Source: Candidatus Uhrbacteria bacterium (GTDB lineage: Bacteria; Patescibacteriota; Patescibacteriia; JACQRZ01). From it: a stretch of DNA of 64,000 nt. Positions within the stretch are counted from its first letter, which is position 1. Each line of letters begins with the position of its first letter. The stretch spans positions 1,334 to 65,333 of the forward strand of contig JACQSB010000018.1 in NCBI GenBank assembly GCA_016206175.1. Direction: 5' to 3'. A program made the position numbers and the translations under genes. A model generated the notes under the pieces. The model worked only from the letters and a program-made list of their open reading frames with translations, was not told the DNA's origin and ran no database searches. Positions 653-46,476 of the stretch are shown one piece after another.

Positions 653-2440
653 TCATTGCGTCGGCAGTGCGGCTTTGCTTTCTTCTTTCGGACTTTCTTG
701 CGGAGCGGGATCCACTGTTTCTTCTTGAGTCGGCTGTTCCGTTGATACTGTCTCTTGCGCGCTCTGCGCGGCTAGCTCTGGTTTTACAGAGGCAGAGCTG
801 CATGCTTCTGCGATATTTTGTAATGCGCCATTAGATACCACAACGCAAAATGGCGCACCGGTCTCTGTGTCATACAGCTGGATACCGTGAGGACGGTCTG
901 CAGATCCTACGGTAAACGATTCTGTCTGTATCGATGATGCAAACAGTTTCTGTACGCGCATTACCCCGTCTTCGATCGCAACACCTACTGATGCAAGCGT
1001 GCTGCGCAGCCACGAAAGATCGATCGAGAGTATTTGCTGTGAAAGCGCTTGTATTGCCAAAAGCGCAATGCCAGAAGGATCAATCGTGGAAATGGAGCGC
1101 ATGCCCTCGATACCGCCAACGCCGAAAGCTGCATAAAATTCCTCTGCGACAGGGCCGATATGGGTGGTGTCAGAGCTGTCTGCTTTGTAGTTCCATCTTG
1201 TGATCTTAAGTTGATTCACTTTTTTAAGCATGTCGCCTGCATCAAGATCAGCAAAATTTTCTTTTAATGCTCTGCTCGATGCGTTGGTCCATGTGCCGCC
1301 TCCGGAAAGGTAAGCGCCTGACTCGGTATCAATGATGCGGTTTGCAGTAATGGCAGCGTTTTGGCCGACAGCGGGGGTTCCGAGATACAAAGTTGCCGCG
1401 CTGGATACTGTTTGCCCGGGCACTTCTCCGGTAACTGTGGGTGCGTCAATGGTCATTGCGCGAGCATATGGGTGCGTGCTGGTGCCAGTGCCTTGCAGCG
1501 TTATCGACGGCTCGGCGACATGCAATCCTTTGATTGGCGCATCCGCTCGGCCCGCCATGCTCAACGCAACAGTGACAGCACCACGTAAGCTCGTCTCGCC
1601 GTCAGTTGCCAGTGAAGAGAATTCGGCTTCTTCACTTTTCAATGACTCTGAATTCAATGCTGTGGCTGTAAAAGATGTCGCTCCTTCAGAATCAATGATT
1701 GCGGGTATATAGTGCTGCTGAATGCCATCAATGCCCGGCAATCCATTCAAGTTTTGCGATGTTCCTGGCGTACCTGCAGGTCCGGTATCCCCTTTTTTGC
1801 CTTGCGGACCCGTAAGGGCGCCGGAAGCGACAAGAGCGTCAATATACGAACGCACCGCTGAGTCCATTTCCTTGCGGAGCGTAGGGGCATCTATGGAAGC
1901 GGTACCAACTGCAACAATCTGCGTGGAGTCGCCCTCATCGCCGGCACTTTGCATCTCGCTATCTTTGCCTTGATGATCTGTTGCTAAAAGGCTTACTTTC
2001 TTTACTGATCCATCTGTTCCAGATTCGCCCTTCGGACCCCTTGGACCCCTCTCTCCCCTACCACCTTTTTCACCGCGAGGTCCTTGATCTCCCTTTGGCC
2101 CGGGAACACCTCGCAAAGCACCGGAAGAAGCTAATGAGTCAATGTATGTAGAAACCATAGTACTCATTTGTTCTTCATGGTCCTCGCTTATCTCTCCTTG
2201 ATTGTGTCCATGATCCCCATGGATATCCTCTTCTCCTGTTGTTGAAACATGAAACTCGCGGAATACCTTCCCAACCTCTTGTTCAACGAGTACCTGAATC
2301 GCTCCCGGCGACAACGTGGAATGTGCAACTTCCAAGTCAACCGCCTTTTGGGTATAGAATGCATGGATCGGGAATGAGGAAAGCACAAACACCAGGGCTG
2401 CAGGCGCTACAAAAAATGCGGAATAATGATTCCATTTCAT
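653..2440 (-). CDS. secreted collagen-like repeat protein with C-terminal peptidase S74 intramolecular-chaperone (tail-fibre type) domain
   Basis: ORF 653..2545. Likely start is ATG 2440 (MKWNHYSAFFVAPAALVFVLSS, AAGGA RBS upstream). Two G-X-Y tracts (GPKGDQGPRGEKGGRGERGPRGPKGESG; GPQGKKGDTGPAGTPG). His/acid tract EEDIHGDHGHNQGEISEDHEE. SSRALKENF...IGPVAEEF...LLAIQAL matches the S74 autoprocessing signature. Confidence 0.8.
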   Translation of the reverse strand: MKWNHYSAFFVAPAALVFVLSSFPIHAFYTQKAVDLEVAHSTLSPGAIQVLVEQEVGKVFREFHVSTTGEEDIHGDHGHNQGEISEDHEEQMSTMVSTYIDSLASSGALRGVPGPKGDQGPRGEKGGRGERGPRGPKGESGTDGSVKKVSLLATDHQGKDSEMQSAGDEGDSTQIVAVGTASIDAPTLRKEMDSAVRSYIDALVASGALTGPQGKKGDTGPAGTPGTSQNLNGLPGIDGIQQHYIPAIIDSEGATSFTATALNSESLKSEEAEFSSLATDGETSLRGAVTVALSMAGRADAPIKGLHVAEPSITLQGTGTSTHPYARAMTIDAPTVTGEVPGQTVSSAATLYLGTPAVGQNAAITANRIIDTESGAYLSGGGTWTNASSRALKENFADLDAGDMLKKVNQLKITRWNYKADSSDTTHIGPVAEEFYAAFGVGGIEGMRSISTIDPSGIALLAIQALSQQILSIDLSWLRSTLASVGVAIEDGVMRVQKLFASSIQTESFTVGSADRPHGIQLYDTETGAPFCVVVSNGALQNIAEACSSASVKPELAAQSAQETVSTEQPTQEETVDPAPQESPKEESKAALPTQ

Positions 2441-2463
2441 ATATTTCCTTGATAAATTATTAT

Positions 2464-2509
2464 TGCAACTTAGTTGCAGTAACTTACCCCAAAACTTATC
2501 AACCGTCAA
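2464..2509 (-). promoter_or_regulatory. candidate promoter (-35 TTGACG, 17 nt, -10 TAAGTT) with palindromic operator TGCAACTTAGTTGCA
   Basis: Perfect 7-1-7 palindrome at 2464..2478. It lies 2 nt downstream of the -10 (2481..2486) and about 25 nt before start codon 2440. It matches 14 of 15 nt of the znuA operator at 19583..19597. Confidence 0.45.
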
Positions 2510-2645
2510 GGCAATGCCCTGTGGATAGATGCAACTTTGGTGCAATAACGATAATTACGTTCACTGGCACAAGATAGAGAAACGATAGAAACGCTCATCT
2601 ATCCGACTGGTGGGCAAAAAATGAAAATGGAAGAAAACGACGTAA

Positions 2646-4873: not shown

Positions 4874-6151
4874 CTAAAGAACGAGACCTTCTCCGTGCTT
4901 GAATTCACGGTCAACGGCAAACGCGCTCGCGTCGACTTCCCCGAGCCCAAAGGGGAGATCGAAGACCGAGACGTTCTCGCGCGCAGCCACAAGGTGCGCG
5001 ACGATTGTAGCCGTAAACGGAGCATGCATGACCCCGTGGCCGCTGAACCCAGAAGCGTGGATGAGGTTCGGCACGAACGGATCGTACCCGATGAGCGGAT
5101 TGTGGTCGGGGGTGACATCGTAGTACCCGCACGACACCCCACTCATCCGTGCCATCTCCGTGATGGCGGGAATGTAACCCTCGAGCTCCTTACGGATCGC
5201 TCCGCCGAGCCCGTCCGGATTCGAATAATGGAAACCGGATTGAATTTCATCCTGTCCTTCGAAGGTCGGCACCTCCTCTGGCGTATGATGCCCCCAGCCG
5301 GCCATCAGTTGTGTCCGCGCCTCCGGGCGGCAATACGCGCCCCGCGGGGTTATGACCATAGGCATCTGGTGGATGTTTGCGGCGTTTAGGCCGCATTCAT
5401 CCTTCTCGCCCATGCCGGGAAGAAAGTACAGATACCGCCGCCTCGTCGAGATCGGTAGCTCGTACCCACCGCACATGCGCGAGATCGCCGGCGCCCAGTT
5501 GCTTGCCGCATTGACGAAGAGAGTACCGGGATACTTCCGGCCGTTCTTGGCGCTGACGCTCACGATCCGTCCGTCCTCGACAGTTGCGTCGACGACTTCG
5601 GCGTTGGTGATGATGTCGGCCCCAAGCTCCGCTGCAGCAGCAGCTGCACCCTGGTAAATGAGATCAGGGTGCAAAAAACCGTCCGTCGGGCACCATGTGG
5701 CGCCGATGAGACCGGTCGTGTCGATGTATGGAAATTGATCGAAGATCTCTCCCTTCGTCAGGAAAGTAACTTCCGCCAACCCCGCTTCCTGCTGCATCTT
5801 GATCTGGCTGCGCAACGAATCGGGATCCGTGCGAAGGTCATACATGAAGAGATATCCGTTCTGCTCGATCGGGGACTGAACGCCACCGATGAGCTCTTCC
5901 CACTTCTTGTAAAAATCCACGGCATACCGCAAACCGCGAACCGTGGTCGGAGTCGTGAACTGCTGCCTGATGCAAGCAGCAGAACGCGAACTCGCACCGT
6001 TACCGAGCTGACGCGCTTCAAGCAGCATCACTTGGTGGCCGGCACGCTGGAGCTCCCAGGCACACAACGTGCCCGAGACGCCCCCGCCGATGACTACCAC
6101 ATGCTGCTTCGCGCCCCGCGGCGGCGGGTGCACCACAGAGTGAATACTCAT
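4874..6151 (-). CDS. FAD-dependent oxidoreductase (DAO / sarcosine-oxidase-beta-like family)
   Basis: N-terminal dinucleotide fold VVVIGGGVSGTLCAWELQRAGHQVMLLEA. Length and layout are typical of the glycine/D-amino-acid oxidase family. GC-rich. Confidence 0.8.
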   Translation of the reverse strand: MSIHSVVHPPPRGAKQHVVVIGGGVSGTLCAWELQRAGHQVMLLEARQLGNGASSRSAACIRQQFTTPTTVRGLRYAVDFYKKWEELIGGVQSPIEQNGYLFMYDLRTDPDSLRSQIKMQQEAGLAEVTFLTKGEIFDQFPYIDTTGLIGATWCPTDGFLHPDLIYQGAAAAAAELGADIITNAEVVDATVEDGRIVSVSAKNGRKYPGTLFVNAASNWAPAISRMCGGYELPISTRRRYLYFLPGMGEKDECGLNAANIHQMPMVITPRGAYCRPEARTQLMAGWGHHTPEEVPTFEGQDEIQSGFHYSNPDGLGGAIRKELEGYIPAITEMARMSGVSCGYYDVTPDHNPLIGYDPFVPNLIHASGFSGHGVMHAPFTATIVAHLVAARENVSVFDLPFGLGEVDASAFAVDREFKHGEGLVL

Positions 6152-6186
6152 TTACCTTTCCTTGTCCTTTCGTATCGAGGGTTGGG

Positions 6187-7953
6187 TCAGTTATCACGCT
6201 CGTTGAGCTCGCGGCAGAACGCCTCGAGTTCTTCGATGGTCATGGTTGCCGTCGGCAAAGACCCGGGCTTGGAAACACTGAATCGGGCATCAGCGCTAGC
6301 AGCTTGCCGGAAGCGCACCTCGAGCTTGTGTTCTTGTTCCCATGTCCTGCCAACGAGTACCTGAAGCGGGATTCCGAGGAGTTCGGCATCCGTCAGCTTT
6401 TCGCCGATCCGCAGATCGCGATCGTCGATCAGCATGCGCAGATCCGAGTCGGACTGCAGCTGCTGGTAGATACTTTCTGCTTCAGCGCCGTTCTTCTCCG
6501 CGTTGACGGGGATAACGACGATGTGGAATGGCGTGAGGCTCCACGGCCAGATGATGCCACGCTCGTCATTGTGTTGCTCCACGATCGCTTGCACGATGCG
6601 CGAAACGCCAATGCCGTAGCAGCCCATCCAGTAGGGAGTTTTCTTGCCGAGCTCTGACGCGTAGCATGCGTCCATTGGTTCGGAGTACACCTGTTGAAGT
6701 TGGAAGATGTGGCCGAGTTCGATCCCCCGCTTCTCGACGAGCTGGCTCGTCTTGCAGTTCGGACAGTGCTGTCCCGCGACTGCTTTGGAGAGATCATGGT
6801 ATTCCGTGATTCGCGGAAAATCTCTGCCGGGGTTCACGTTGATGAAGTGAATGTCCTCTTCGTTTGCCCCGCACAAGAAATTCCGCAGGCCTTGCACTGA
6901 CCGATCGAAGAAGTACCGCACATTTGTCTTGCCGTACAGGTTGATCGGTCCGGCGAAGCCGACAGGAGCGCCAGTGACAGTCTGCACTGTTTCGGCATCC
7001 GCTGTTACCACTTCTTTTGCTCCGAGAAGATTCGCGAGCTTGATCTCGCTGATCTCGAGGTCACCGCGCATGGTGACGATCACCGGTTTCCCATCAGCAG
7101 CCATTACGATAGTCTTCGCCATCTTGGATGCAGGAATACCGGTGAACTCCTCGAGCTCTTGCACCGTACGAATGTTGGGAGTGGGCAGCTTCACGAGATC
7201 GGCAAACGCTTCTTCGGGATACCCCGGATAGTGCGCCGATGCCTTTTCCTGATTGCCGCCGTAATGGCACGCGGGACAGTACAGGAGGATATCCTCGCCG
7301 AACTCCGTGACCGCCATGAACTCCGCGCTGCCCGAGCCGCCGATGGCGCCCGAGTCAGCCTCGACCTCGATATAGTTGAAGCCGCACCGCGTGAACACAC
7401 GGTTGTAAGCGGCTTCCATCGTGTCATAGGCCTGCTTCATTGCCGCCGGATCTGCGCCGAAGGACTAGGCATCCTTCATGATGAATTCCCTACCCCGAAT
7501 CAATCCTTGGCGGGGCCGCAGTTCGTCGCGGAACTTCGGTCCCATTTGCCACAAGGTGATCGGCAGATCGCGGAAGCTCTGAAGCGTCGTACGGGCGAAG
7601 TGAGTGATCACTTCTTCCGCTGTCGGAGACATGAGAAACTCCGCGCCCTTGCGGTCCATGACCTGAAACGCGGTGTTGCTCTGGATGTACTTGTCCCACC
7701 TGCGGGTTTCTTCCCACAGGCTCCGTGGCTGCAGGATCGGCAACTCGAGCTCAACAGCGCCTGCGCGCTGCATTTCTTGCCGCACGATTGCTTCCACGTT
7801 CCGTCTGACCGCAAGGCCAAGCGGAGCCATGGTCCATACGCCGCTCGCCACCTGGGTCATAAACCCGGCCCGGATGAGCAAGCGCGTCCCCGGCGACGGA
7901 ACGTCTGCCGGGTCATCTCTCCTTGTTTTTGGGTAAAGCTTGCTGTAGTGCAT
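6187..7953 (-). pseudogene. proS: prolyl-tRNA synthetase interrupted by one in-frame TAG (7465..7467)
   Basis: Track ORFs 7465..7986 and 6187..7440 are in the same frame. The read-through is ...REFIMKDA*SFGADPAAMKQAYD.... Bacterial-type ProRS with an editing insertion. Likely start is ATG 7953 (MHYSKLY) with a GGAG RBS. Confidence 0.85.
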
Positions 7954-8082
7954 TTCTCCTTTTCCCTTCCGATGAAAACCTAGCATGCCAGGCTTTCATA
8001 TAATTTCCTTACAATGACACTATTTCAAAGGGCTCATGGTTGAGCCTAGGGTGCAATAATGTCGTTGTCAAGGAGTGCTGAA

Positions 8083-9147
8083 TCACTTCAATAGAATAAG
8101 ATTATCAGTATGAATAAGCTCTAAACCGTGAATTTTTTCCGTGCCAAGAAGTGGAATAAGTTCATCGGAAGATATTTTTACTAAACCGACGGCAATGCTA
8201 TGTTTTTGCGCGTTAATGATTTCGATGATCTCGCTAAGTCCAAATTGTCCAAATACCCGTTTCACGCCTACCGCAAGCAAGCTCTTGCCACGCAGCAATG
8301 CTTTTTCCGCCCCTTCGTCAATTTCAATACTTCCGCTGGAGTTTTTTGCCGCAAGCATCCATCGTTCTCGTTCCTTCAGTTTACTGCGAAAATGCCGAGC
8401 ATGGAATACCGTACCGACTTTCTCCCCTTTCAACGCGCGCGCGAGGTTGCCGGTCACACACCCGTTGACGAGCTGCACTTCGATGCCCACCGCGTTGCAG
8501 AGCCGGGCTGTTTTCACTTTTGAAAGCATGCCGCCTCGTCCGCCGGCAGAGATTTTTCCCGATATCACTTTGAGCAATATCGTATTTGCATCATCAACAT
8601 CGCTGATGAGCTGTGCGCCAACACCCAACGAAGGATTCTTGTCATAGAGACCATCGACATTCGTGAGGACGATTACTTTTTTTACATTGAGAAAAATTGC
8701 AAGCGCTCCGGCGAGGCTATCGTTGTCTCCAAAGCTTGTCCCCGTACCCGCTGTCACCGCGTCGTTTTCATTGATGATCGGTATCACTCCGCGTAAGACA
8801 AGTTCTTTTATGATTTTTTGGATATTCTTGCCATTGTCCCGCTCAATGAGATCAACACGTGTCAACAAAATCTCAGCAAGGCGACATTCCTGCTCGCGGG
8901 CAACTTTTGCGTACTCACCAAAAAGCGCGGGCTGCCCCACGCTCGCGGCAGTCGCGATAGATGCGCGAGCATCATCAAGTATATGGCGTCCGTATTTCGT
9001 CGCTCCAGAACTTACCAGCACGATCGTAATGCCTCGTTTAGCAGCATATGCGATCGTCGACAATAAATCTTGAATGACTTCACGCCGCACGCGACCGTCG
9101 GATGCAATCAAGGTATCCGAGCCAACTTTTACAATAATCATTTCCAC
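8083..9147 (-). CDS. proB: glutamate 5-kinase with PUA domain
   Basis: IVKVGS...VSSGA amino-acid-kinase fold and a C-terminal PUA-like segment (GSIEIDEGAEKALLRGKSLLAVGV). Adjacent to proA. Confidence 0.9.
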   Translation of the reverse strand: MEMIIVKVGSDTLIASDGRVRREVIQDLLSTIAYAAKRGITIVLVSSGATKYGRHILDDARASIATAASVGQPALFGEYAKVAREQECRLAEILLTRVDLIERDNGKNIQKIIKELVLRGVIPIINENDAVTAGTGTSFGDNDSLAGALAIFLNVKKVIVLTNVDGLYDKNPSLGVGAQLISDVDDANTILLKVISGKISAGGRGGMLSKVKTARLCNAVGIEVQLVNGCVTGNLARALKGEKVGTVFHARHFRSKLKERERWMLAAKNSSGSIEIDEGAEKALLRGKSLLAVGVKRVFGQFGLSEIIEIINAQKHSIAVGLVKISSDELIPLLGTEKIHGLELIHTDNLILLK

Positions 9148-9161
9148 TGTATTGAGGTTAA

Positions 9162-10400
9162 TTACCTGATATGTCCGTCGCCGATCACGCGATAGGCAGG
9201 TACGGTAAGATCTTCAAGCCCCATAGGGCCACGCATATGAATACGCGCGGTGCTGATGCCGACTTCCGCGCCAAGCCCGAATTGCCCCCCATCTGTCAAG
9301 CGGTTGGAAGCATTTACAAGCACGGTCGCGCTGTCAACTCGTTTGAGGAATTCTGCAGCTGCCGTTTGATTTTCCGTAATGATAGAGTCAGTGAGACCCG
9401 AACTATATTTTGCAATATGCTCAATTGCCTCATCAAGAGATGAAACCACTTTCATGGATACAATTAAATCCAGATACTCGGTATCCCAATCTTGTTCTGT
9501 TGCTGGTATGCATTCGCGATCATAGGAACACGTTTTCGCGCATCCGCGAATTTCAACTCCTTTTGCATGCAGTTGGCTGATCAGCGGTGGCATTACAGCG
9601 TCGGCAATTCCTTGGTGTATCAAAATCGTTTCAACGGAATTGCACGTGGCGGGATTTGATGTTTTTGCATTGACGGCGATCTGAATAGCCTTTTGGATGT
9701 CAGCAGCAGCGTCGATATAGGCATGGCACAACCCGCGCATGTGCTTGATCACCGGGACGCGCGCATGATCACAAACAGCTTTGATTAACGATTCGCGGCC
9801 GCGCGGGATAACCAAATCAATGTACTGTTCAAGTTGCACCAATTCATTCACGGCTTCGTGGCGGCGATCTTCGACGAGCTGGACCGCCATGGCAGGCAGT
9901 CCTGCTTGAGAAAGAGCGTCGCGGACGCAACGCATCAATGCCTCACAAGAATGCAAGGCCTCTTTACCGGGACGCAGAAGCAAGGCATTCCCGCTTTTTA
10001 TACAAAGCGCCGCAACATCGACAACAACATTAGGGCGCGATTCAAAAATAAAAACGATGACGCCGATCGGCGTACGGACACGTTCAATGCGTAGTCCGTC
10101 AGGCCGCGTCCACGATCGCACGAGCGTGCCGACCGGATCGGGAAGTTCGCGGATATCGCGTACGCCGTCTGCGATTGCGGCAATACTTGCATCCGTAAGT
10201 TCGAGGCGGCGCCGCATCGCAGGAGTGATATCGAAATGTTCGGCGATATCTTTTTTGTTAGCTTCGATGATCTGCTGCGCGGAACCGCGAAGGCACGATT
10301 CCAAATGCCGCAAAAAATCATTTTTCACTTCCGTGCTTGCAGATCGCAGTTGTATCCACGCCTCTTTTGCTTCACGCGCTTGTGTTGTGACGTCTTTCAT
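9162..10400 (-). CDS. proA: gamma-glutamyl phosphate reductase
   Basis: Aldehyde-dehydrogenase-type ProA sequence (ESRPNV, NASNRLTDGGQFGLGAE). The ORF extends to 10436, but MKDVTTQAREAK (ATG 10400) fits ProA N-termini and a TTGCAA-17-TATGCT promoter. Confidence 0.88.
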   Translation of the reverse strand: MKDVTTQAREAKEAWIQLRSASTEVKNDFLRHLESCLRGSAQQIIEANKKDIAEHFDITPAMRRRLELTDASIAAIADGVRDIRELPDPVGTLVRSWTRPDGLRIERVRTPIGVIVFIFESRPNVVVDVAALCIKSGNALLLRPGKEALHSCEALMRCVRDALSQAGLPAMAVQLVEDRRHEAVNELVQLEQYIDLVIPRGRESLIKAVCDHARVPVIKHMRGLCHAYIDAAADIQKAIQIAVNAKTSNPATCNSVETILIHQGIADAVMPPLISQLHAKGVEIRGCAKTCSYDRECIPATEQDWDTEYLDLIVSMKVVSSLDEAIEHIAKYSSGLTDSIITENQTAAAEFLKRVDSATVLVNASNRLTDGGQFGLGAEVGISTARIHMRGPMGLEDLTVPAYRVIGDGHIR

Positions 10401-10446
10401 GGAATGTAGCATACTGTCAAAAAGTATTTTTTGCAATCAAAATGTC

Positions 10447-10485
10447 AGAAAAAAGAAGCCCCACGGAAAGGATTGCACGCGGGGC
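10447..10485 (-). terminator. intrinsic terminator after the GC-rich orphan gene
   Basis: Minus strand reads GCCCCGCG...CGTGGGGC (stem with one G-U) followed by TTCTTTTTTCT. Confidence 0.6.
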
Positions 10486-10530
10486 AGAACGAAGAAAGGA
10501 TGGATGGTCCAAGAAATCGATGAGAAAGGC

Positions 10531-11040
10531 TCACACCTCTTCGACGATCCAGAGAATCCCCGGGTCAAGCATGCTGTACGTGCCGATGACTCCCTCCTCC
10601 CAGGAGTCGCCCCGTCCCTCGAGGCAGGGGAAGTACGTATCGTCCTCCGGACTGATCCATGAAGCGTCCGCCACGCAGATCATGAGCTTCCCAACACGTT
10701 CGAGTCTGTGCTCCGGATCGAGACCCGGATACAGATCCCCCCTGTGCTCAGGTGGCACCGGATACTTGTGCTTGAAAGCTCGCAGCCATTGCCCCTCGGG
10801 GCTGAAGCACTGCGATGCCAGGATGAAATCTGTCGCCTTCTGAAACGTACACGCCTCCGATGGCGTGACGATGAACCGAAACACCCTGATCTGTGCCTCG
10901 TCGATCACTACACCTGCGTGCCGCCACTCCTCTGGGGCATGTTCCTCTTCGACAAGCTCCAGCGGATCGAAGTTGTACGAGCTAAGCTCGAAAGGCTCCC
11001 CGACCTTGGGGAATTGCAGACTCCGAGAGTTGCCTCTCAT
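10531..11040 (-). CDS. hypothetical protein (169 aa), GC-rich orphan between proA and proC
   Basis: Long clean ORF with its own terminator and no recognisable motif. Composition is clearly more GC-rich than the flanking pro genes. Confidence 0.55.
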   Translation of the reverse strand: MRGNSRSLQFPKVGEPFELSSYNFDPLELVEEEHAPEEWRHAGVVIDEAQIRVFRFIVTPSEACTFQKATDFILASQCFSPEGQWLRAFKHKYPVPPEHRGDLYPGLDPEHRLERVGKLMICVADASWISPEDDTYFPCLEGRGDSWEEGVIGTYSMLDPGILWIVEEV

Positions 11041-11173
11041 TGGATTTTCCTCACTTTCCTACGAAAAGATCGTGAGCCTAGTATACAGAAAAATGTGCCC
11101 TCGTCAATTATGACGCATCAAAAACTCAAAGATTGATTCAATGCTATATCTATGCTATTTTATACTAACTACA

Positions 11174-11968
11174 ATGAAAAAAATCAAAACAATCGGAATA
11201 CTCGGCGGAGGCGTCATGGGCGAGCTGATGGCAAGCAACATCGTAAAGATATTTCCCACAGCCTCTTTAATCGTATGCGAACGCAATGGTGCGCATGCTA
11301 CCATGCTGCAAAAAAAATATCGCATTGCTGTCACGACACGGTGCGAGGATCTGATGGTGACTGACGTTATCATTCTTGCTGTGAAACCGCAGGATTTTCC
11401 ATTAGCGCGGATAATCGCAAAAAAAGATGCGCTCGTTATTTCCATTATGGCGGGGGTATCAACTGCAACAATTCGTAAACAGACACATGCAAAAAAAATC
11501 GTGCGCGCGATGCCCAACACTCCGGCGCGATTCGGTAAGGGGTTTACCGCATTTTTTGCTACGCGGACTGTTGATCGGGAAGGTATCCGATTTTGCTCGC
11601 AGCTATTTGATGGATTAGGCGTGAGCTTTCGCGTGCCGGCGGAAGAAACAATCAACAAAGTGACAGCGATAACCGGGAGCGGACCTGCTTACCTGATCGA
11701 TACTCTTGCACACTTTATGAGCGCGGCACAGAGCCTAGGGTTTTCAAAAAAAATTGCGTATCAAATGATACTGCAAACGCTCATCGGCACTGAAGCTCTT
11801 TTGGCAGATAATCCTGATCCGGAGCATCTCATCAACCAGATCGCTTCCAAAGGCGGTACAACCGAAGCTGCGCTTCGCGAATTTGAAAAAGCAGACATTC
11901 ACAAGATATGGCACAAAGCCGTTGATGCCGCCTACGCCAGGGCGCAAGAACTTGGCAAACGTATATAA
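11174..11968 (+). CDS. proC: pyrroline-5-carboxylate reductase
   Basis: MKKIKTIGILGGGVMG NADP fold and a C-terminal ASKGGTTEAAL motif. The track ORF starts at 11141, but ATG 11174 fits the Rossmann N-terminus. Confidence 0.88.
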   Translation: MKKIKTIGILGGGVMGELMASNIVKIFPTASLIVCERNGAHATMLQKKYRIAVTTRCEDLMVTDVIILAVKPQDFPLARIIAKKDALVISIMAGVSTATIRKQTHAKKIVRAMPNTPARFGKGFTAFFATRTVDREGIRFCSQLFDGLGVSFRVPAEETINKVTAITGSGPAYLIDTLAHFMSAAQSLGFSKKIAYQMILQTLIGTEALLADNPDPEHLINQIASKGGTTEAALREFEKADIHKIWHKAVDAAYARAQELGKRI

Positions 11969-11981
11969 AAGGAGAGGGACC

Positions 11982-12218
11982 CTAGACGGACCCCTCGGAA
12001 ACGATGTTCTGGTCAAAGTATTCGGCGAGATCGCCGACCCTTATCGGGTCCTTGACCAGTACTGGCTTCTTCAGCCAATTTGCGAAGTTTGTGATGAGAT
12101 TGTTGGCCACGTCGGCCGGGACTTCCTCCTCGGCGTCCAAAACGCCGGCTGTTTTCCCCATGGCACGCGCGGCAGCGCGCCCGATGTAGTTCGTAATCCC
12201 TTCTGCATAATCACTCAT
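11982..12218 (-). CDS. small hypothetical protein (78 aa), GC-rich
   Basis: ORF 11982..12248. ATG 12218 (MSDYAEG) is preceded by a strong AGGAGG. Lies 19 nt downstream of the argH stop on the same strand. Confidence 0.5.
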   Translation of the reverse strand: MSDYAEGITNYIGRAAARAMGKTAGVLDAEEEVPADVANNLITNFANWLKKPVLVKDPIRVGDLAEYFDQNIVSEGSV

Positions 12219-12267
12219 CGCCTTGCCTCCTTCGTGGGACTTATTCAAACGGAGTTAGCGGTCATTG

Positions 12268-13557
12268 TCAAGACCTCAGCCGTTTTTCATAACGATCGAA
12301 TCCAAGATTGCCGGGGGCGCCAAGGCTGATTTTCGATTTGATGTTTTCGTACGGATCGATATCTTCGTGCGAAAGCCGTTCGCATGCACGTGCATACGCG
12401 TCGCGGAACGGTATCCCTTCTTGTGTTGCCATTGCTGTTGCGATATCAGCAGAAAAAATATCTTTTTTGATCGCGGCTTTGATTGCTGCCTCATTGGGCG
12501 TAAGCGCATTGATGAGTATACCGACCACTGTGATGCTGTCTGCTGCCACCCTGGTGCTTTCGATAAGCAGTTTTTTTATCAACTGCAAATCGCGGTGGTA
12601 CCCAGACATCAAGTGAGACGCAAGGTCAACCGCGGCGGCATGATGGCTGCGCACCACCGCGCCATTGCCGCGGACAAGTTCCAAGCAGTCGAGATTGCGT
12701 TTCTGCGGCATGATGCTTGAGCCTGTTACACAGCTGTCATCTACCGAAAAAAAATCAAACTCGCGCGAGGTAAACAGGATCAAATCATTTGCGATCTTGC
12801 CTAATGTCTGCATGCATGTCGAAAGCGCTTGGAGATAAAGCGCTTCATATTTGCCGCGGCTTGACTGGCAATAGAGCGAATTCACTTGTACTCCAGAAAA
12901 GCCGAGCTCCTGCGCTGTGTATTCCCGATCGAGCGGCAATGCCACACCAAAACCGGCTGCGCTGCCAAGCGGATTTTTATCAATATGCTTGCTGACAGCT
13001 CCAAAAAAATCCCGGTCAGCAAGCAGTGACTCTGTGTAGCTGCAAAAATAATGCCCGACAGATGAAAGCATTGCTTGCTGGGTATGGGAATATCCCGGCA
13101 GAGGAATGTTTTCATATTTCTTGGCATACGCAAGCAAGGCTCGCGCAAGATCAGATGATGCATCTGAAAGCTTGCCCAGCATATCTTTCATATAGAGCCT
13201 CACCGCGACAAGAATCTGATCATTGCGGCTCCGGCCGGTATGGATCTTCTTGCCGACCGCGCCGAGCGTTTCCGTCAGATACCGCTCGATGACAGTGTGG
13301 CAGTCTTCATCCGTAGGCATGATGGTGATTGCGCGTACACTCCACTGCTCTTGCAGTGCTGCAAGCCCTGCAAGGAGTTGATCCAACTCCTTACCTGTGA
13401 GCACCCCGATACGCGCTAAGCCTTTGGCGTGCGCGCGGCTCGCAATAATGTCATATGGCATGAATACCGCATCGTTGCGGTAGTCATCCCCGATCGTGTA
13501 GCGTTCGATTATCGGATCGAGTTTTGCCGAAGATTTTTGCCAAAGTGTACCACTCAT
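12268..13557 (-). CDS. argH: argininosuccinate lyase
   Basis: Fumarate-lyase signature GSSIMPQKRN and ArgH-length alignment pattern (TGRSRNDQ). Confidence 0.92.
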   Translation of the reverse strand: MSGTLWQKSSAKLDPIIERYTIGDDYRNDAVFMPYDIIASRAHAKGLARIGVLTGKELDQLLAGLAALQEQWSVRAITIMPTDEDCHTVIERYLTETLGAVGKKIHTGRSRNDQILVAVRLYMKDMLGKLSDASSDLARALLAYAKKYENIPLPGYSHTQQAMLSSVGHYFCSYTESLLADRDFFGAVSKHIDKNPLGSAAGFGVALPLDREYTAQELGFSGVQVNSLYCQSSRGKYEALYLQALSTCMQTLGKIANDLILFTSREFDFFSVDDSCVTGSSIMPQKRNLDCLELVRGNGAVVRSHHAAAVDLASHLMSGYHRDLQLIKKLLIESTRVAADSITVVGILINALTPNEAAIKAAIKKDIFSADIATAMATQEGIPFRDAYARACERLSHEDIDPYENIKSKISLGAPGNLGFDRYEKRLRS

Positions 13558-13633
13558 AGTCTACAAAAACATAGCACGGAGCTTCTCGGAGAGCAATCTG
13601 GAATATGTGCCACGCGCAACGATCGTCTGTGTT

Positions 13634-14908
13634 CTAGTTTTTATGCAATTCGCTCTCAAAATCATACATCTGAAATGCCGTTCGCTGCGCAAGCGTGTAT
13701 ATCTCAATGAATCCTGCTGACGCGTTTTGATTGAACGTTGCATTCCGCTCAAACGTTGCAAGCGAATGGTCAAATAGAGAATACGGTGATTGCACTGCGA
13801 CTACATCAATGTTGCCTTTATATAATCTCACCGTGCATGAGCCTGTCACCTTTTTATTTTGGCTGTTCATGAATGCATGGATGTGGTACATGACAGGGTC
13901 ATACCATTTTGCCGCATAGGTCAGATATGCCCATTTTGTATCCATGAAGGTCTTTAATTCATTCTCTTCTCGAGTGGATACGAGCCGCTCGAGATTCTTA
14001 TGCGCGGCAATCAAAATGCTCGCTCCCGGATTTTCATACACGCCCCGCACCTTGAGCCCCACAAGCCGATCTTCAATCAGATGAAACACGCCCACGCCGT
14101 GCTCTGCGCCGAGTGCGTTGCAGTATTTAACGAGCTCGCTTAATTTCATCGCTTTGCCGTCCGCCTTTACGGGAATCCCTTTATCGAATTGTATAGTGAT
14201 CGTTTGCGGCGTGTCCGAAGCGCTCTCGACCGTCTTGCACCACTGCAAGATATTTTCCAGCGGAGGAATCAGCTCGGGATTTTCAATCTCTCCGCCTTCG
14301 CCGGTATTGCCCCACATGTTTTCATCATAGGAATAGGGGCTGTTCGCTTGCTGTTTGATCGGGATATGATTTTTTTCTGCGTATGCGATCTCTTCTTGGC
14401 GGCCCATCCCCCACTCCCGTACAGGAGCGATGATTTTGATCTTTGGATCAAGTGTTGTCATATATCCTTCAAATCGCACTTGATCATTCCCCTTTCCGGT
14501 GCAGCCATGCGCAATGACGGTACAGTCGTTTTCTCGCGCTGCTTTCACTGCGATTTTTGATATCGCTACTCTTCCTAACGGCGTGCTTAATGCATATCCA
14601 CCTTGATAATCAGCATTTGCCTTAATCGCCTCGGTTAAGAGGACATCGGCAAATTCATCTTTCGCGTCATACACGATCGTTTTTTTTGCTCCGAGCCGTA
14701 GCGCTTTCTCTTTGATTTCTTCCAGATTGTCAGCAGTCTGCCCCAGATCGATCGTGAGCGTGATGACATCGCACTGATACTCCTCTTGGATCCATTTGAG
14801 CATCACGGATGTATCAAGCCCTCCGGAATACAAAAGAAGGCAGGAGCTAAACTCCCCTTTCTGCGCCTCATGGGAGGCTACCTTTTTATAGGATGTAGCA
14901 CTATTCAT
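13634..14908 (-). CDS. argG: argininosuccinate synthase
   Basis: LLLYSGGLDTS ATP-PPase motif and AHGCTGKGNDQVRFE. The track ORF reaches 15001, but that part overlaps the T-box terminator. ATG 14908 (MNSATSYKK) is the likely start. Confidence 0.9.
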   Translation of the reverse strand: MNSATSYKKVASHEAQKGEFSSCLLLYSGGLDTSVMLKWIQEEYQCDVITLTIDLGQTADNLEEIKEKALRLGAKKTIVYDAKDEFADVLLTEAIKANADYQGGYALSTPLGRVAISKIAVKAARENDCTVIAHGCTGKGNDQVRFEGYMTTLDPKIKIIAPVREWGMGRQEEIAYAEKNHIPIKQQANSPYSYDENMWGNTGEGGEIENPELIPPLENILQWCKTVESASDTPQTITIQFDKGIPVKADGKAMKLSELVKYCNALGAEHGVGVFHLIEDRLVGLKVRGVYENPGASILIAAHKNLERLVSTREENELKTFMDTKWAYLTYAAKWYDPVMYHIHAFMNSQNKKVTGSCTVRLYKGNIDVVAVQSPYSLFDHSLATFERNATFNQNASAGFIEIYTLAQRTAFQMYDFESELHKN

Positions 14909-14930
14909 ACTTATTACGATTACATAAATT

Positions 14931-15300
14931 AAAAAACTCTCGTTCCAACTCATCAACAAAAAACATGTTGATGAAGGAGCGAGAGTTTTTCGCGGTACCA
15001 TCCTTCATTCCCCCTTATCCTCGCGGATGAAGGGCTCTGCCAGTGCGTCCTTTTCAATGAAAGGCTACACTGTCGCGTATGATGACGGACGCGTGCCGGC
15101 GGCACCTACTTGTTCCGTTTTGCAGCGCTTGCATCCGCGCTGCGGAACTTTCTTCGGCTGCTACCAAAGGATAGGAATCTTCCTATCCTTAAGAGGCGCG
15201 TTCGAAATACTCTGTGTCATCGGGCTTTCACCATTCCCCGACTCGCTTGCCGTACGCAGCTACGCACAGCTTTGACACCGTAGCATTCCTACTATTCCTC
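14931..15300 (-). promoter_or_regulatory. T-box leader (tRNA-sensing riboswitch), Arg CGC specifier, with intrinsic terminator
   Basis: Minus strand shows the Stem I distal motif GAGUCGGGGAAUGGUGAAAGCCCGAUGA, the specifier loop AGAGUAUUUCGAA-CGC-G, the Stem II hairpin AAGGAUAGGAAGAUUCCUAUCCUU and the T-box AAGGAUGGUACCGCG. The terminator is CUCUCGCUCC...GGAACGAGAG plus UUUUUU ending near 14931. Confidence 0.8.
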
Positions 15301-19648: not shown

Positions 19649-20686
19649 TTATTTCACGCGAGGTATATCGGCAAAATCAACATCAGTTATTCCCATGCCT
19701 GTCTTTTTCATGATGGCAAACGCGTCCGACGGCTTCCCGAGATAATACCGTCGCAATTCGGTGGGATGCACATACCATGCTTCACCGTTTCTCTGCACGG
19801 CAAGAAATATCACACCTGCGTGCCTCGACGCAAATTGCTTGTTTGTTGCTATACGAGCGGCTCCGGTCGGCGAATACCCGTTCATTACCTCAAGACCATC
19901 GGCATATCCATCCCCATCGGTGTCGGCAGCAGCGGGGTCGGTTCCGATAGCCGCTTCTCCACGATCGGAAAGCCCATCGCCATCCGTATCTGTGCCATCA
20001 CGCAATGTCTCGTAGGCAAGAGGGATTGAGTCCATGTCACTATTTTTGATCCCGATCCCGCTGGACCGCATGACAGCAAACGCATCGGCGGGTCGGCCGA
20101 GAAATACTGCTTTGGAGTCTTTGGGCCGCACATACCATGCTTCACCATTTCTTTCAGTAGCGATGAGGATGCGGCCGCGCAGTCGTTTCATTTTTGTGTT
20201 CTGCACTTCTTCTTTCGATGGGAGTTTTGCGAGATTCGAATAAAACATTTCTTCTGCGGATGGTTGTTTCTGCATCTCTGTTTGCACTCTTCCATAGGCG
20301 GGAACAAGTTCCCCGCTACAGCGCGCAAGCTCACCAGGCGCGAGTATATTGCGGGAAAAGTATTTGAGATCTTGCGGCAAGACGCATATCATCGAATGGC
20401 CCTTAAAATCCTTCCAGGTAGACTGCAAGAACGTGGTTTGCACTTCGCAGGCATCCCCTTTCATGCCAAGAATTGTCCGCTCGGCAACCTCACCATTTCC
20501 GGAAACAACCACCTTAGCCGGCAGGCATGCGGAAAAATATGTCTCGAAGCATGTCTCTGCCTCATCGCCGGCTCCGGTAACGTCGATTGAACCGCACTCA
20601 TACGGAGATTGGCCCAACGCAGGGTTTGGTGTGAGTGCGATACCGGCTATTGCGAGAACAAAGATGATGCGTTGCATCATGGACAT
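19649..20686 (-). CDS. secreted protein: Cys-rich N-domain, 2x GEAWYV module, thrombospondin-type-3-like Ca-binding repeats
   Basis: Signal peptide MSMMQRIIFVLAIAGIALT. Two copies of the ..GRIL....NGEAWYV.P....R..LG.P.DAF..M...G.GI module. DTDGDGLSD...GTDP...DTDGDGYADGLE repeats. Confidence 0.7.
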   Translation of the reverse strand: MSMMQRIIFVLAIAGIALTPNPALGQSPYECGSIDVTGAGDEAETCFETYFSACLPAKVVVSGNGEVAERTILGMKGDACEVQTTFLQSTWKDFKGHSMICVLPQDLKYFSRNILAPGELARCSGELVPAYGRVQTEMQKQPSAEEMFYSNLAKLPSKEEVQNTKMKRLRGRILIATERNGEAWYVRPKDSKAVFLGRPADAFAVMRSSGIGIKNSDMDSIPLAYETLRDGTDTDGDGLSDRGEAAIGTDPAAADTDGDGYADGLEVMNGYSPTGAARIATNKQFASRHAGVIFLAVQRNGEAWYVHPTELRRYYLGKPSDAFAIMKKTGMGITDVDFADIPRVK

Positions 20687-20691
20687 AATAA

Positions 20692-21546
20692 TTATTGAAC
20701 AACGATTATACCGCCGTGAGACGGGGCAAGATGATTGTGAAAGCGATAGGTGCCCGCTTTCTGAAACGGAAATGAATACTCCTCACCGATTGTCTGCTGA
20801 TCAAATCCCGACAGATCCGTATGCACGGGATGAGGATCTGATGCTACCCACATTGATGCTGAACCGGTACTTCGGAATACCACCGTCTGTCCAACCTTGA
20901 TCGTCACCGAAGAAGGAGCAAAAGTGTTTCCGTTATAGAGAATGGTTGTCGGAGATACTGGTGATTCTTTTGCTGGCTCTGTTGATGTTGCTGTGTCGGC
21001 AACGACGGGTGCCTTTTCTTTTTTCTTCGCTTCATTTTTATCCTGCATCGCAGGCGCTTGCGCTTGTGGCGGCAGGAGAATGGCATCAAACTTGGCGGAA
21101 GGTACGAGCAATAGATTCTCGTGAGTAATGCCAAGACCTAACTCGCGCATAACCCGAAATGCATCTGCCGGCCGCGCAAGAAAATAGCGTTTGAATGTAG
21201 TAGGATGCACGTACCATGCTTCACCATTGGACTCTACTTGTAAAAGGATTCTTCCGGCAAGGCGGGTAGCGAGCGGTGAGGCGCCCTCCTCATCTCCTTG
21301 CGGGATTTTTTCCAAATCTGCATTGGTGATGCCGAGCCCAAGCTGCCGCATTACCTGAAATGCGTCTGCGGGACGGCCAAGGAAATACCGTTGCTCATTT
21401 TTCGGATTCACATACCACGCTTCGCCTTTCTGTCTGACATCGAGCAGAATACGGCCTTTCAGCTTTGTGGATAATGACAACGCGTCGACACGAGCCGAAA
21501 ACGTTAACGCGAGCACGAATGCGAGAATGCTTAAAACGCATCTCAT
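20692..21546 (-). CDS. secreted protein: 2x GEAWYV module plus C-terminal cupredoxin-like domain
   Basis: Signal peptide and two GEAWYV modules. The C-terminal FAPSSVTIKVGQTVVFRSTG...AGTYRFHNHLAPSHGGIIVV has a cupredoxin-fold pattern, but no canonical Cys ligand is evident. Confidence 0.7.
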   Translation of the reverse strand: MRCVLSILAFVLALTFSARVDALSLSTKLKGRILLDVRQKGEAWYVNPKNEQRYFLGRPADAFQVMRQLGLGITNADLEKIPQGDEEGASPLATRLAGRILLQVESNGEAWYVHPTTFKRYFLARPADAFRVMRELGLGITHENLLLVPSAKFDAILLPPQAQAPAMQDKNEAKKKEKAPVVADTATSTEPAKESPVSPTTILYNGNTFAPSSVTIKVGQTVVFRSTGSASMWVASDPHPVHTDLSGFDQQTIGEEYSFPFQKAGTYRFHNHLAPSHGGIIVVQ

Positions 21547-21555
21547 AGGATATCT

Positions 21556-21975
21556 CTAGGAATTAGTAGTATCTTTTGTCTCCTTCTGAATAGTGCGCCA
21601 GTGGTAGAGATAAAGCGGCAAGCCAACGATGATGAGCGCGATATTCATGGATGCGTCACGGTGACGCTCTACCAGACGGTAATCGATTTTATCGCGTTGT
21701 TCTTTCCATTTCTTGTATTCTTCAAGATAGGTTTTGACCTGCGCGCGCTCTTCTTCGCTTAATTCTTTATCCTCCTTTGCTTTCTCAAGAGGGCTTACGG
21801 CATAGGGCATGGGCAGCTCGGGGTACCGCATGTATTGATCCTGCTCGGCTTGAGTAAAAACAAAAATCTTCAAGCCCATATTCACAAATCGCACCGCGCC
21901 GATCGTGATAAGCGCCAAACCGATAAGGGCAAAAAGATACAAATAGATAGTTCGGATGAGAGGATATCGAGACAT
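21556..21975 (-). CDS. hypothetical membrane protein (139 aa)
   Basis: TM helices at both ends flank a charged coiled segment. Confidence 0.5.
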   Translation of the reverse strand: MSRYPLIRTIYLYLFALIGLALITIGAVRFVNMGLKIFVFTQAEQDQYMRYPELPMPYAVSPLEKAKEDKELSEEERAQVKTYLEEYKKWKEQRDKIDYRLVERHRDASMNIALIIVGLPLYLYHWRTIQKETKDTTNS

Positions 21976-43561: not shown

Positions 43562-45124
43562 TCAATCTTTCACGCACATTTTCAGGGTAACACTATATGA
43601 AGAGCCGGCGGAACAATTCTGTTTTGTTTCATCCTGCTTGGCGCTCGTATCTTCATAACATTTTTGCAACGTAGGACTATAGAGGTAGCCTGCGGGGCAT
43701 GATGTCGGAGCGACTTTCTCTTCAGTTTTTTGCTCCTCTTTCTTCGGCTCCTCAGGAGGAAGGACGCCTTTCTGCTCAGGCGGGTTACTCACTGGTTCTG
43801 GTGGAGGAGGTGCAATTTTTCTTTCTGACGATTTTTCGTCAGTCGTAACACTTTGATCCTTATCGAATAATCCCTGGCTGGAATAGTCTTTGCCAGTATA
43901 TGGATCAATGACGACGCGCCGAATAAAGGAAGGCTCCGGATCTGGCATGTAGCCATCAAGAACAAAATACATCGGTGTTTTTGCCCCACTGGCAAGGCTA
44001 AAGAAAATTGCTACCGGAGAGATGGAGAAAAAATCTCTGTATTCTTCCCGTGATAATGCAAGGTAATCAGCAACGGCGTCGTTAGCAAGCGCATGCGCCT
44101 CATCGGGCGATATTTCAGGCAACTCTCCATTTTCATTGATCAAATATGAGATGTTTTCCGTATCAATCAACTGTTTTGTACTCGGATCAACATTTTCCGG
44201 GATTTGGCTTGATAAAGCGTCAAGTTCCTTGAGGTGTGTTTTGTCTTTATCCAGCTCGTAAGTATAGGGGTTGATGAGAATCCGTTTGCCAAAATAATAG
44301 CCACCCCCCGACGACCTTACGAAATCGATAAAGTACGTTTCGCTGCCATCGGCAAGTGTGTAGTCATCAGGATAGAGCGGAAGATAATCAGAACTTAGGC
44401 CAACATCACGCGCAGTATATTTCATCGTCTTTTTCTCTACGACATAAGTTGCCCTATCCCCTTCCTCGCCATTTTCATTCCAGCAGACAAGCGCATATTC
44501 CTTCCCCGGTTCTGCCGAATAATAATCGCTTCCCTGCGGAGCTTTCAACCCCTCCCAATCTTGGGGGCCGCTTGCCCAGCAAGCAACCGTCCCTTTTGAT
44601 GAACTCCATGCAAGCGTAATCTCTTCACCGGACCGTGCATGGGAATGACCCGTAATCTCAGGGACCGGACTTTTAAGCTTTTTACGCTTCAACTTTTTCT
44701 TACTGGCGACAACAGTCACTTTCTGTGATACTTTTTTTGTTGCAACTCCCTCATCGTCAAAACATTCAAGCTCATAGACACCTGTCTTCTTAGCAACAAC
44801 CCGTACCGACCCAGTCGGTTCTTTTTTCCCGGACCACGCACCTGATGCCGTGCAGTAATCGGCACCGTCACTCTCCCAGTCAAGGCGTATTTTTTCACCT
44901 TTTACTACTTTGAACGGTGCAGCATAAAATTGAATGTCAAGTTCAGAGGATGCATCATCTTCCGCCGCAAACCCAAACGATGTGATGCCTATAATGAGAA
45001 ACAAAGCGCTCACAATAGCAGTAATGGCAACCATCGATCGCGCAGCTCCAAATCGAGTAAAGTATTTCATAGAATTGGCGCTATTCATAAGATAAAAGTG
45101 TACTCTATCATTAGTATGCCGCAT
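43562..45124 (-). CDS. secreted protein with two Ig-like repeats and duplicated C-terminal Cys motifs
   Basis: TM/signal sequence (probable start ATG 45070, MKYFTRF). Repeats are L.WES.GADYCTASGAWSGKK and LAWSSSKGTVACWASGPQDWEG. C-terminal CPAGYLYSPTLQKC and CSAGSSYSVTLKMC. Confidence 0.55.
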   Translation of the reverse strand: MRHTNDRVHFYLMNSANSMKYFTRFGAARSMVAITAIVSALFLIIGITSFGFAAEDDASSELDIQFYAAPFKVVKGEKIRLDWESDGADYCTASGAWSGKKEPTGSVRVVAKKTGVYELECFDDEGVATKKVSQKVTVVASKKKLKRKKLKSPVPEITGHSHARSGEEITLAWSSSKGTVACWASGPQDWEGLKAPQGSDYYSAEPGKEYALVCWNENGEEGDRATYVVEKKTMKYTARDVGLSSDYLPLYPDDYTLADGSETYFIDFVRSSGGGYYFGKRILINPYTYELDKDKTHLKELDALSSQIPENVDPSTKQLIDTENISYLINENGELPEISPDEAHALANDAVADYLALSREEYRDFFSISPVAIFFSLASGAKTPMYFVLDGYMPDPEPSFIRRVVIDPYTGKDYSSQGLFDKDQSVTTDEKSSERKIAPPPPEPVSNPPEQKGVLPPEEPKKEEQKTEEKVAPTSCPAGYLYSPTLQKCYEDTSAKQDETKQNCSAGSSYSVTLKMCVKD

Positions 45125-45151
45125 GGAAAGCAGCTAAGCAAGGAGGTATCT

Positions 45152-46351: not shown

Positions 46352-46476
46352 ATTGGTTTGAATCTAAGTACATCTATCCTATCACATCGCCCCAAAATAC
46401 CGTGTGCATAACTCCATTGAATACTATGCTGATGCATGGTACCATAAGGTCAATTTATCCACGCACCTCACTATCT

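What the first reader, a model, noticed from the sequence alone, without database searches (positions are those of the whole stretch)
7465..7467. Essential proS split by one in-frame TAG at the invariant Tyr of class II motif 2
The reverse strand reads ...GLIRGREFIMKDA-TAG-SFGADPAAMKQAYD.... ORFs 7465..7986 and 6187..7440 share one frame. ProRS motif 2 is EF.MKDAYSF, so TAG replaces a TAY Tyr codon (one base change). TAG ends many other ORFs here (stops at 2646, 3457, 4874, 11982, 13634, 15375, 21556 and 22039), so genome-wide TAG reassignment is unlikely. The remaining options are a consensus or sequencing error, a strain-level SNP, a true nonsense allele (needing a second proS or a suppressor), or local readthrough.
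Basis: partly seen in the sequence, partly recalled or inferred. Interest (0 to 1): 0.6.

Follow-up and report, generated by a model that had tools for sequence, protein, structure and literature searches.

The report
Lone stop codon in proS: artefact
One base in this groundwater Uhrbacteria genome bin turns an invariant tyrosine codon of the prolyl-tRNA synthetase gene into a stop, but an independent assembly of the same population reads TAT (tyrosine) there, so this is an assembly error or a rare variant and not unusual biology.

Summary
On the minus strand, TAG at 7467..7465 is codon 163 of an otherwise complete 588-codon bacterial-type proS (7953..6187). This position is Tyr in 120 of 120 homologs.

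The stop is not the organism's normal state. The window comes from a GenBank 'Candidatus Uhrbacteria bacterium' MAG, on a 66,445-nt contig. There the gene is annotated as two CDSs, MBI4250360.1 and MBI4250359.1. A Logan assembly of the public run SRR12113385 yields a 7,064-nt contig (L078). It matches window 4933..11996 at 7,063 of 7,064 bases. The only difference is window base 7465, which gives TAT (Tyr) and an intact ProRS. A second contig from that run matches 2,933 of 2,933 bases.

Nothing else suggests decay or recoding:
- dN/dS against the closest ortholog is 0.08 on both sides of the stop.
- The window lineage shows no excess of changes.
- TAG ends 15 of 68 ORFs, including an ortholog-matched terminus.
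- No other gene carries an in-frame TAG.
- The window holds no tRNA, no Rfam hit and no significant local RNA structure.

Best reading: a single-base consensus error or an unrepresentative minor allele in the deposited MAG. Only read mapping can separate those two. Interest is low.

The parts
7465..7467 (-). In-frame TAG, codon 163 of proS. The variable base is window 7465: C on the + strand, which is the G of TAG.
   Evidence: Searches show the stop in frame. Searches show that Logan contig L078 has A on the + strand here (TAT, Tyr) and no other difference in 7,064 nt. L001 has TAC and L002 has TAT.
6187..7953 (-). Complete bacterial-type prolyl-tRNA synthetase gene (proS): 588 codons plus a TGA stop at 6189..6187. 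It has the class II core, the INS editing domain and the anticodon-binding domain, and is interrupted only at codon 163.
   Evidence: Searches give the family matches. Searches give the alignments. One search shows 459 bits to PDB 5znj ProRS over residues 2-550. One search shows 588 codons with no indels relative to L001.
7468..7953 (-). N-terminal fragment, codons 1-162 (motif 1 and the first half of motif 2). GenBank annotates part of it as the 131-aa 'hypothetical protein' MBI4250360.1.
6187..7464 (-). C-terminal fragment, codons 164-588. GenBank annotates it from Met172 (7440) as the 417-aa 'proline--tRNA ligase' MBI4250359.1.
7954..7970 (-). Purine-rich Shine-Dalgarno-like stretch (GGAAGGGAAAAGGAGAA) immediately upstream of the proS ATG. 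The expression signals look intact.
   Evidence: Read directly from the sequence. Function is inferred.

Best explanation
The TAG is a single-base discrepancy in the deposited MAG consensus: T->G on the coding strand, TAT->TAG, at window base 7465. It is either a base-call or assembly error, or an unrepresentative minor allele that was captured in the consensus. The organism's working proS carries TAT (Tyr163) and encodes an ordinary full-length bacterial-type ProRS in a conserved proA-proB-proS(-DAO) arrangement. No recoding, suppression or gene decay needs to be invoked. Shown: the same population yields an intact allele in an independent assembly, and the gene is otherwise under strong purifying selection. 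Inferred: that the TAG arose as an artefact or rare variant rather than being dominant in the source sample.
For: (1) The window proteins exactly match GenBank 'Candidatus Uhrbacteria bacterium' entries on a 66,445-nt contig, including MBI4250359.1 (417 aa) and MBI4250360.1 (131 aa), which are the two proS fragments. (2) The same 90%-identity cluster holds P0125 (599 aa, Logan assembly of SRR12113385). It equals the read-through translation of the window with Tyr at the stop. (3) Its contig L078 matches window 4933..11996 at 7,063 of 7,064 bases, and the only mismatch is base 7465, giving TAT. (4) A second contig from the same run, L080, matches window 11967..14899 at 2,933 of 2,933 bases. That makes one difference in about 10 kb, and it falls on the nonsense base. 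(5) Tyr is present in 120 of 120 homologs. The orthologs L001 (TAC), L002 (TAT) and L079 are all intact and syntenic. (6) dN/dS between the window and L001 is 0.086 upstream and 0.077 downstream of the stop. Lineage-specific amino-acid changes number 11 in the window and 13 in L001. (7) TAG is a normal terminator here, and no other gene in 64 kb has an in-frame stop flanked by open stretches of at least 100 codons that belong to one gene.
Against: No reads were available, so allele frequencies in the sample that produced the MAG are unknown. It could not be shown whether the MAG was assembled from SRR12113385 itself or from a sibling sample. If it came from a sibling sample, the TAG could be a real allele that dominates there. 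Consensus substitution errors are rare in Illumina assemblies, and the other ~66 genes in the window look intact, so the assembly is not generally error-prone.
Confidence: 0.85

Rival explanations
1. The TAG is a real nonsense allele that dominates the sub-population from which the MAG was assembled. It would be very recent and tolerated because another ProRS gene exists elsewhere in the genome, or it belongs to a dying lineage.
For: The TAG is present in a deposited consensus. The window covers only 64 kb of the genome, so a second proS cannot be excluded (one search covers the window only). A homolog in another Logan assembly (L077) also carries a point nonsense, TGA at the Arg155 codon, so such lesions do appear in assembly data.
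Against: An independent assembly of an otherwise identical sequence has TAT. This proS is the syntenic ortholog of the single intact proS of relatives. There is no relaxation of selection and there are no further lesions. Patescibacteria have small genomes and generally carry single aaRS copies (background knowledge).
Confidence: 0.1
2. The UAG is decoded as Tyr by site-specific readthrough or suppression, so the gene is expressed despite the stop. The agent would be a suppressor tRNA(CUA) or near-cognate reading by tRNA-Tyr.
For: The stop sits exactly on a Tyr codon, so insertion of Tyr would restore the wild-type enzyme. The rest of the gene is perfectly conserved.
Against: TAG terminates 15 of 68 ORFs and matches an ortholog's terminus. 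There is no other in-frame TAG. The window has no tRNA and no Rfam hit. The local fold has z = -0.75, so it is not significant. The base after the stop is U, which is a strong termination context in E. coli (background knowledge). 21% of random nonsense changes in this gene would hit a Tyr codon anyway. The same population has a plain TAT allele.
Confidence: 0.03
3. The enzyme works as a two-piece ProRS. Translation terminates at codon 163 and restarts at Met172 (ATG at 7440), and the two fragments assemble.
For: An ATG lies 8 codons after the stop, and GenBank annotates a 417-aa CDS from it.
Against: Residues 163-171 (YSFGADPAA) would be lost, including Tyr163 and Phe165, each present in 120 of 120 homologs, and Ser164, present in 119 of 120, all in motif 2. 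No ATG, GTG or TTG lies between the stop and Met172, and no Shine-Dalgarno sequence precedes it. No relative is split in this way, and the same population has an uninterrupted gene.
Confidence: 0.01

Closest known systems
Internal-stop 'disrupted' CDSs in draft genomes and MAGs caused by consensus errors or captured minor variants
   Same: A single substitution in an otherwise intact, strongly conserved, single-copy essential gene. An independent assembly of the same population lacks the stop. The annotation pipeline splits the gene into two CDSs.
   Different: Nothing of note. The only unusual aspect is that it is a substitution rather than the more common indel or frameshift.
Bacterial-type ProRS with INS editing domain (NCBIfam PRK09194 / TIGR00409; e.g. 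PDB 5znj, 2j3l)
   Same: Full-length match and the same three-domain architecture. The motif-2 sequence RGREFIMKDA[Y]SF is present.
   Different: In the window's version, codon 163 is TAG. In L078 it is TAT, and the protein is a regular family member.
Amber nonsense alleles rescued by tRNA-Tyr(CUA) suppressors (E. coli supF type)
   Same: A UAG at a Tyr codon would be restored to wild type by a Tyr-inserting suppressor.
   Different: There is no evidence of any suppressor tRNA: the window holds no tRNA at all. TAG is used as an ordinary terminator, and an intact allele exists in the same population.
Genome-wide TAG recoding (recoded phages, pyrrolysine users)
   Same: An in-frame TAG in a conserved gene.
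   Different: There is only one such TAG in 64 kb. TAG ends about 22% of ORFs at ortholog-matched termini, and no recoding machinery was seen.

Membership tests
Bacterial-type prolyl-tRNA synthetase (NF006625 / TIGR00409) | Full-length match above the curated cutoff | tested here: met
   635.5 bits against a cutoff of 558, over profile positions 1-545 of 559. TIGR00409 gives 545 bits against 306.7.
Bacterial-type prolyl-tRNA synthetase (NF006625 / TIGR00409) | Class II core, INS (YbaK-like) editing domain and anticodon-binding domain | tested here: met
   PF00587, PF04073 and PF03129 are all above their gathering scores.
Bacterial-type prolyl-tRNA synthetase (NF006625 / TIGR00409) | Uninterrupted reading frame with the motif-2 Tyr | tested here: not met
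   The window has TAG at codon 163. The feature is met in the otherwise identical L078 contig, which has TAT.
Genome-wide TAG (amber) reassignment | TAG is not used as a terminator, and conserved genes carry multiple in-frame TAGs | tested here: not met
   TAG ends 15 of 68 ORFs. The DAO gene ends at TAG at the same aligned position in the window and in L001. The TAGs at 21556 and 22039 separate distinct genes. Only one in-frame TAG splits a gene.
Genome-wide TAG (amber) reassignment | tRNA with a CUA anticodon | tested here: inconclusive
   There are no tRNA genes in the 64-kb window.
Decaying pseudogene / redundant copy | Relaxed selection or additional lesions | tested here: not met
   dN/dS is 0.086 upstream and 0.077 downstream of the stop. 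There are no indels, and the window shows 11 lineage-specific amino-acid changes against 13 in L001. All columns that are invariant among the homologs are retained.
Decaying pseudogene / redundant copy | A second intact proS in the same genome | not testable with these tools
   There is none in the window. The remainder of the MAG could not be retrieved. This copy occupies the conserved proA-proB-proS position.
Programmed stop-codon readthrough | A conserved stimulatory RNA element, and conservation of the stop in relatives | tested here: not met
   The local fold has z = -0.75. There is no Rfam hit. All relatives, and the same population, have a Tyr codon.

The most novel reading that the evidence does not exclude
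The TAG allele is real and dominant in the sample that gave the MAG. In that case cells survive because UAG at this site is read as Tyr, by a suppressor tRNA or by near-cognate tRNA-Tyr, which regenerates wild-type ProRS at a reduced level. That would be a natural, tolerated amber allele of an essential synthetase in a Patescibacterium.
Probability: 0.03. Interest if true: 0.55.

Novelty: not a real feature. Interest (0 to 1): 0.05.

Why it matters
The value is mainly in data hygiene. GenBank entries MBI4250359.1 and MBI4250360.1 are two pieces of one proS and should be merged or flagged. Screens for stop-codon recoding, or for 'missing essential genes' in Patescibacteria, should not count this case. 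It also shows a cheap test that works without raw reads. An exact-sequence look-up of cluster members, followed by comparison with independent Logan assemblies of public runs, can resolve a single-base anomaly in a MAG.

Tried and rejected
- **Exact look-ups of window proteins.** Look-ups of the two proS fragments, DAO, typA and proC in the encoding-contig index found nothing.
- **Genome-contig scan.** A scan with the ProRS protein did not find the source genome. It did give the Uhrbacteria relative L002.
- **Metagenome-contig scan.** A scan with a degenerate 49-mer across the stop found only L001.
- **Genome-wide TAG reassignment.** Rejected.
- **Other candidate in-frame TAGs.** The TAGs at 22039 and 21556 lie in one frame with three open stretches. 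They separate three distinct genes, one starting as a membrane protein and one with a signal peptide.
- **Readthrough structure, T-box or other RNA.** The fold z-score is -0.75 and Rfam gives no hits.
- **Second class II or ProRS-like gene in the window.** None found.
- **Motif-linked systematic miscall.** There is no sign of one. CTAG is under-represented (observed/expected 0.62), and CCTAGT/ACTAGG are not in excess over CCTACT/AGTAGG.
- **Literature.** A search for in-frame stops in Patescibacteria aaRS genes found nothing relevant. SRR12113385 is not mentioned in the searchable papers or in the held supplements of He et al. 2021, PMC7906910. The link between the run and the MAG's project therefore remains an inference.
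- **P0062 / L077.** It first looked like a second split at the same place, but it is a different lesion: TGA at the Arg155 codon in a 60%-identical homolog.

Full report
**Observation.**
On the minus strand the window reads ...CGG GGT AGG GAA TTC ATC ATG AAG GAT GCC TAG TCC TTC GGC GCA GAT..., with the TAG at 7467..7465. ORFs 7465..7986 and 6187..7440 lie in one frame and are separated only by this stop. Read through from the ATG at 7953 to the TGA at 6189..6187, the gene has 588 codons.

The joined protein matches NCBIfam PRK09194 'proline--tRNA ligase' at 635.5 bits (cutoff 558), over profile positions 1-545 of 559. It contains the class II core, the INS editing domain and the anticodon-binding domain. 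It aligns to the solved ProRS 5znj over residues 2-550. A profile built from 120 homologs ends at position 162 in the upstream fragment and resumes at position 164 in the downstream one. The aligned column is Tyr in 120 of 120 homologs, within REF.MKDAYSF.

**Is TAG a sense codon here?**
No. A greedy ORF map gives 68 ORFs with stops TGA 29, TAA 24 and TAG 15. The TAG-terminated genes include the DEAD-box helicase, argG, a cyclophilin and typA. The FAD oxidoreductase downstream of proS ends at TAG at exactly the same aligned residue as its ortholog in L001. The only other places where TAG separates long same-frame open stretches are 22039 and 21556. These are boundaries between three distinct genes, the last of which starts with a signal peptide. 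The window has no tRNA genes and no Rfam matches. The RNA around the stop folds no better than shuffled controls, with z = -0.75.

**Whose gene is it?**
The best database hit is P0001, at 94% identity, 588 aa and intact. It lies on JGI contig Ga0172370_10022538 (L001). That contig is colinear with the window at 86% nucleotide identity over 5.6 kb, in the order proA-proB-proS-DAO. A GTDB representative, 'Candidatus Uhrbacteria bacterium NC_groundwater_423_Ag_B-0.1um_48_14' (L002), has proA-proB-proS with an 82%-identical intact ProRS. The codon is TAC in L001 and TAT in L002. This is therefore the lineage's syntenic housekeeping proS, not an extra copy. No other class II ProRS-like ORF exists in the 64 kb.

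**Is it decaying?**
No. There are no indels relative to L001. dN/dS between the window and L001 is 0.086 upstream and 0.077 downstream of the stop. With L002 as outgroup, the window lineage carries 11 private amino-acid changes against 13 for L001. The window retains every column that is invariant among the homologs. Hitting a Tyr codon is not special either. In this gene, 3.4% of all single-base changes are nonsense and 21% of those are at Tyr codons.

**The decisive result.**
The 90%-identity cluster of P0001 has six members. Two are GenBank proteins from one 66,445-nt contig of a 'Candidatus Uhrbacteria bacterium' MAG:
- MBI4250360.1, 'hypothetical protein HY622_02120', 131 aa.
- MBI4250359.1, 'proline--tRNA ligase', 417 aa.

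Their sequences are exactly the two window fragments. Eight of ten further window proteins are found as exact GenBank entries on the same contig, from MBI4250366.1 to MBI4250414.1. That identifies the source of the window.

Another cluster member, P0125 (599 aa), comes from a Logan assembly of the public run SRR12113385. It equals the window's read-through translation from the upstream ATG at 7986, with Tyr at the stop. Its contig, L078 (7,064 nt), carries part of proC, a hypothetical gene, proA, proB, proS and part of DAO. It matches window 4933..11996 at 7,063 of 7,064 bases. The single mismatch is window base 7465, which is C on the + strand in the window and A in L078. That makes the codon TAG in the window and TAT in L078.

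A second contig of the same run, L080, is identical to window 11967..14899 at 2,933 of 2,933 bases. Over about 10 kb, an independent assembly of the same population therefore differs from the MAG at one base only, and that base is the one creating the stop.

**Interpretation.**
The organism's functional proS has TAT at codon 163. The TAG in the window is a one-base discrepancy of the deposited consensus. I rate at 0.85 the combined explanation that it is an assembly or base-call error, or an unrepresentative minor allele picked up by the assembler. These two cannot be separated without reads.

The relative L002 comes from the groundwater study of He et al. 2021 (PMC7906910). That study used Illumina 150-bp reads, MEGAHIT per filter and IDBA-UD scaffolding. 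That the window's MAG and SRR12113385 belong to the same project is likely but is my inference. The run number does not appear in the searchable text or in the held supplements.

The rivals are:
- **A real, locally dominant nonsense allele**, tolerated through a second ProRS (0.10). It remains possible only because the rest of the genome and the reads are out of reach.
- **Site-specific UAG-to-Tyr decoding** (0.03). It has no positive evidence and several counter-indications.
- **A two-piece enzyme restarting at Met172** (0.01). It would lack Tyr163 and Phe165 (each 120 of 120 homologs) and Ser164 (119 of 120).

**Comparison with known things.**
The gene is an ordinary member of the bacterial-type ProRS family. 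The stop belongs to the familiar class of internal-stop artefacts or variants in draft genomes. It is not a member of any recoding system. The defining features of TAG reassignment and of programmed readthrough were tested and not met.

**Verdict.**
This is not a real biological feature, and interest is about 0.05. The practical consequences are that the two GenBank CDSs should be merged or flagged, and that this site should not be counted in recoding or gene-loss surveys.

Noticed in passing
window 4874..7986 (also L001 2668..5745, L079 7411..10492): proS and the adjacent DAO-family FAD-dependent oxidoreductase form a block of 58-60% G+C with sharp edges, in a window that is otherwise about 48% G+C. 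The same elevation and gene pair occur in L001, and the gene pair also occurs in L079. L002 has proA-proB-proS followed by a different gene. This could reflect an old joint acquisition or a composition bias of these genes. The oxidoreductase's substrate is unknown; its best matches, all below cutoff, are ThiO, N-methyltryptophan oxidase and sarcosine oxidase.
   Followed up: partly
L077 1166..1171 (Logan SRR22387830_1201136): A 60%-identical ProRS homolog on a 40% G+C contig carries an in-frame TGA in place of the conserved Arg155 codon (RG*EF). This lies 8 codons upstream of the Tyr discussed here. The gene also terminates with TGA. It is an independent point nonsense in motif 2 of proS in assembly data, most likely of the same trivial kind.
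   Followed up: partly
window 6187..7860: The GenBank annotation of the source MAG splits the gene into MBI4250360.1 ('hypothetical protein HY622_02120', 131 aa, starting at an internal Met) and MBI4250359.1 ('proline--tRNA ligase', 417 aa), rather than flagging one disrupted gene.
   Followed up: yes
window 8083..15001 and 46300..48972: proB, proA, proC, argH and argG are clustered, and a pyruvate phosphate dikinase lies elsewhere in the window. That is more amino-acid biosynthesis than is usually credited to Patescibacteria. A 169-aa ORF with no family match (10531..11040) sits between proA and proC and is conserved in L078 and L079.
   Followed up: no
window 653..2545: A 630-aa protein has collagen-like G-x-y repeats and a C-terminal Peptidase_S74 (endosialidase chaperone) domain. 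This architecture is typical of phage tail fibres and of some surface proteins.
   Followed up: no
window 19649..21546: Two adjacent secreted proteins each carry repeated copies of a 'GRILLxVExNGEAWYVxP...FLGRPADAFxVM' module. One also has bacterial TSP3 repeats, and the other ends in a region that looks like a cupredoxin (my reading of the sequence; not tested against any family). No family was assigned to the repeat module.
   Followed up: no
window, whole: The palindromic tetramers GGCC (observed/expected 0.60) and CTAG (0.62) are under-represented. The TAG discussed here creates one of only 32 CTAG sites in 64 kb.
   Followed up: no
L081 (Logan SRR12113390_1996828) vs window 44556..46388: A contig from a sibling run differs from the window by 1 mismatch and 4 gap openings in 1.8 kb. 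The contigs from SRR12113385, by contrast, are identical apart from base 7465. This suggests that SRR12113385 is the closer or source library, and that SRR12113390 holds a slightly different strain or a noisier assembly.
   Followed up: partly
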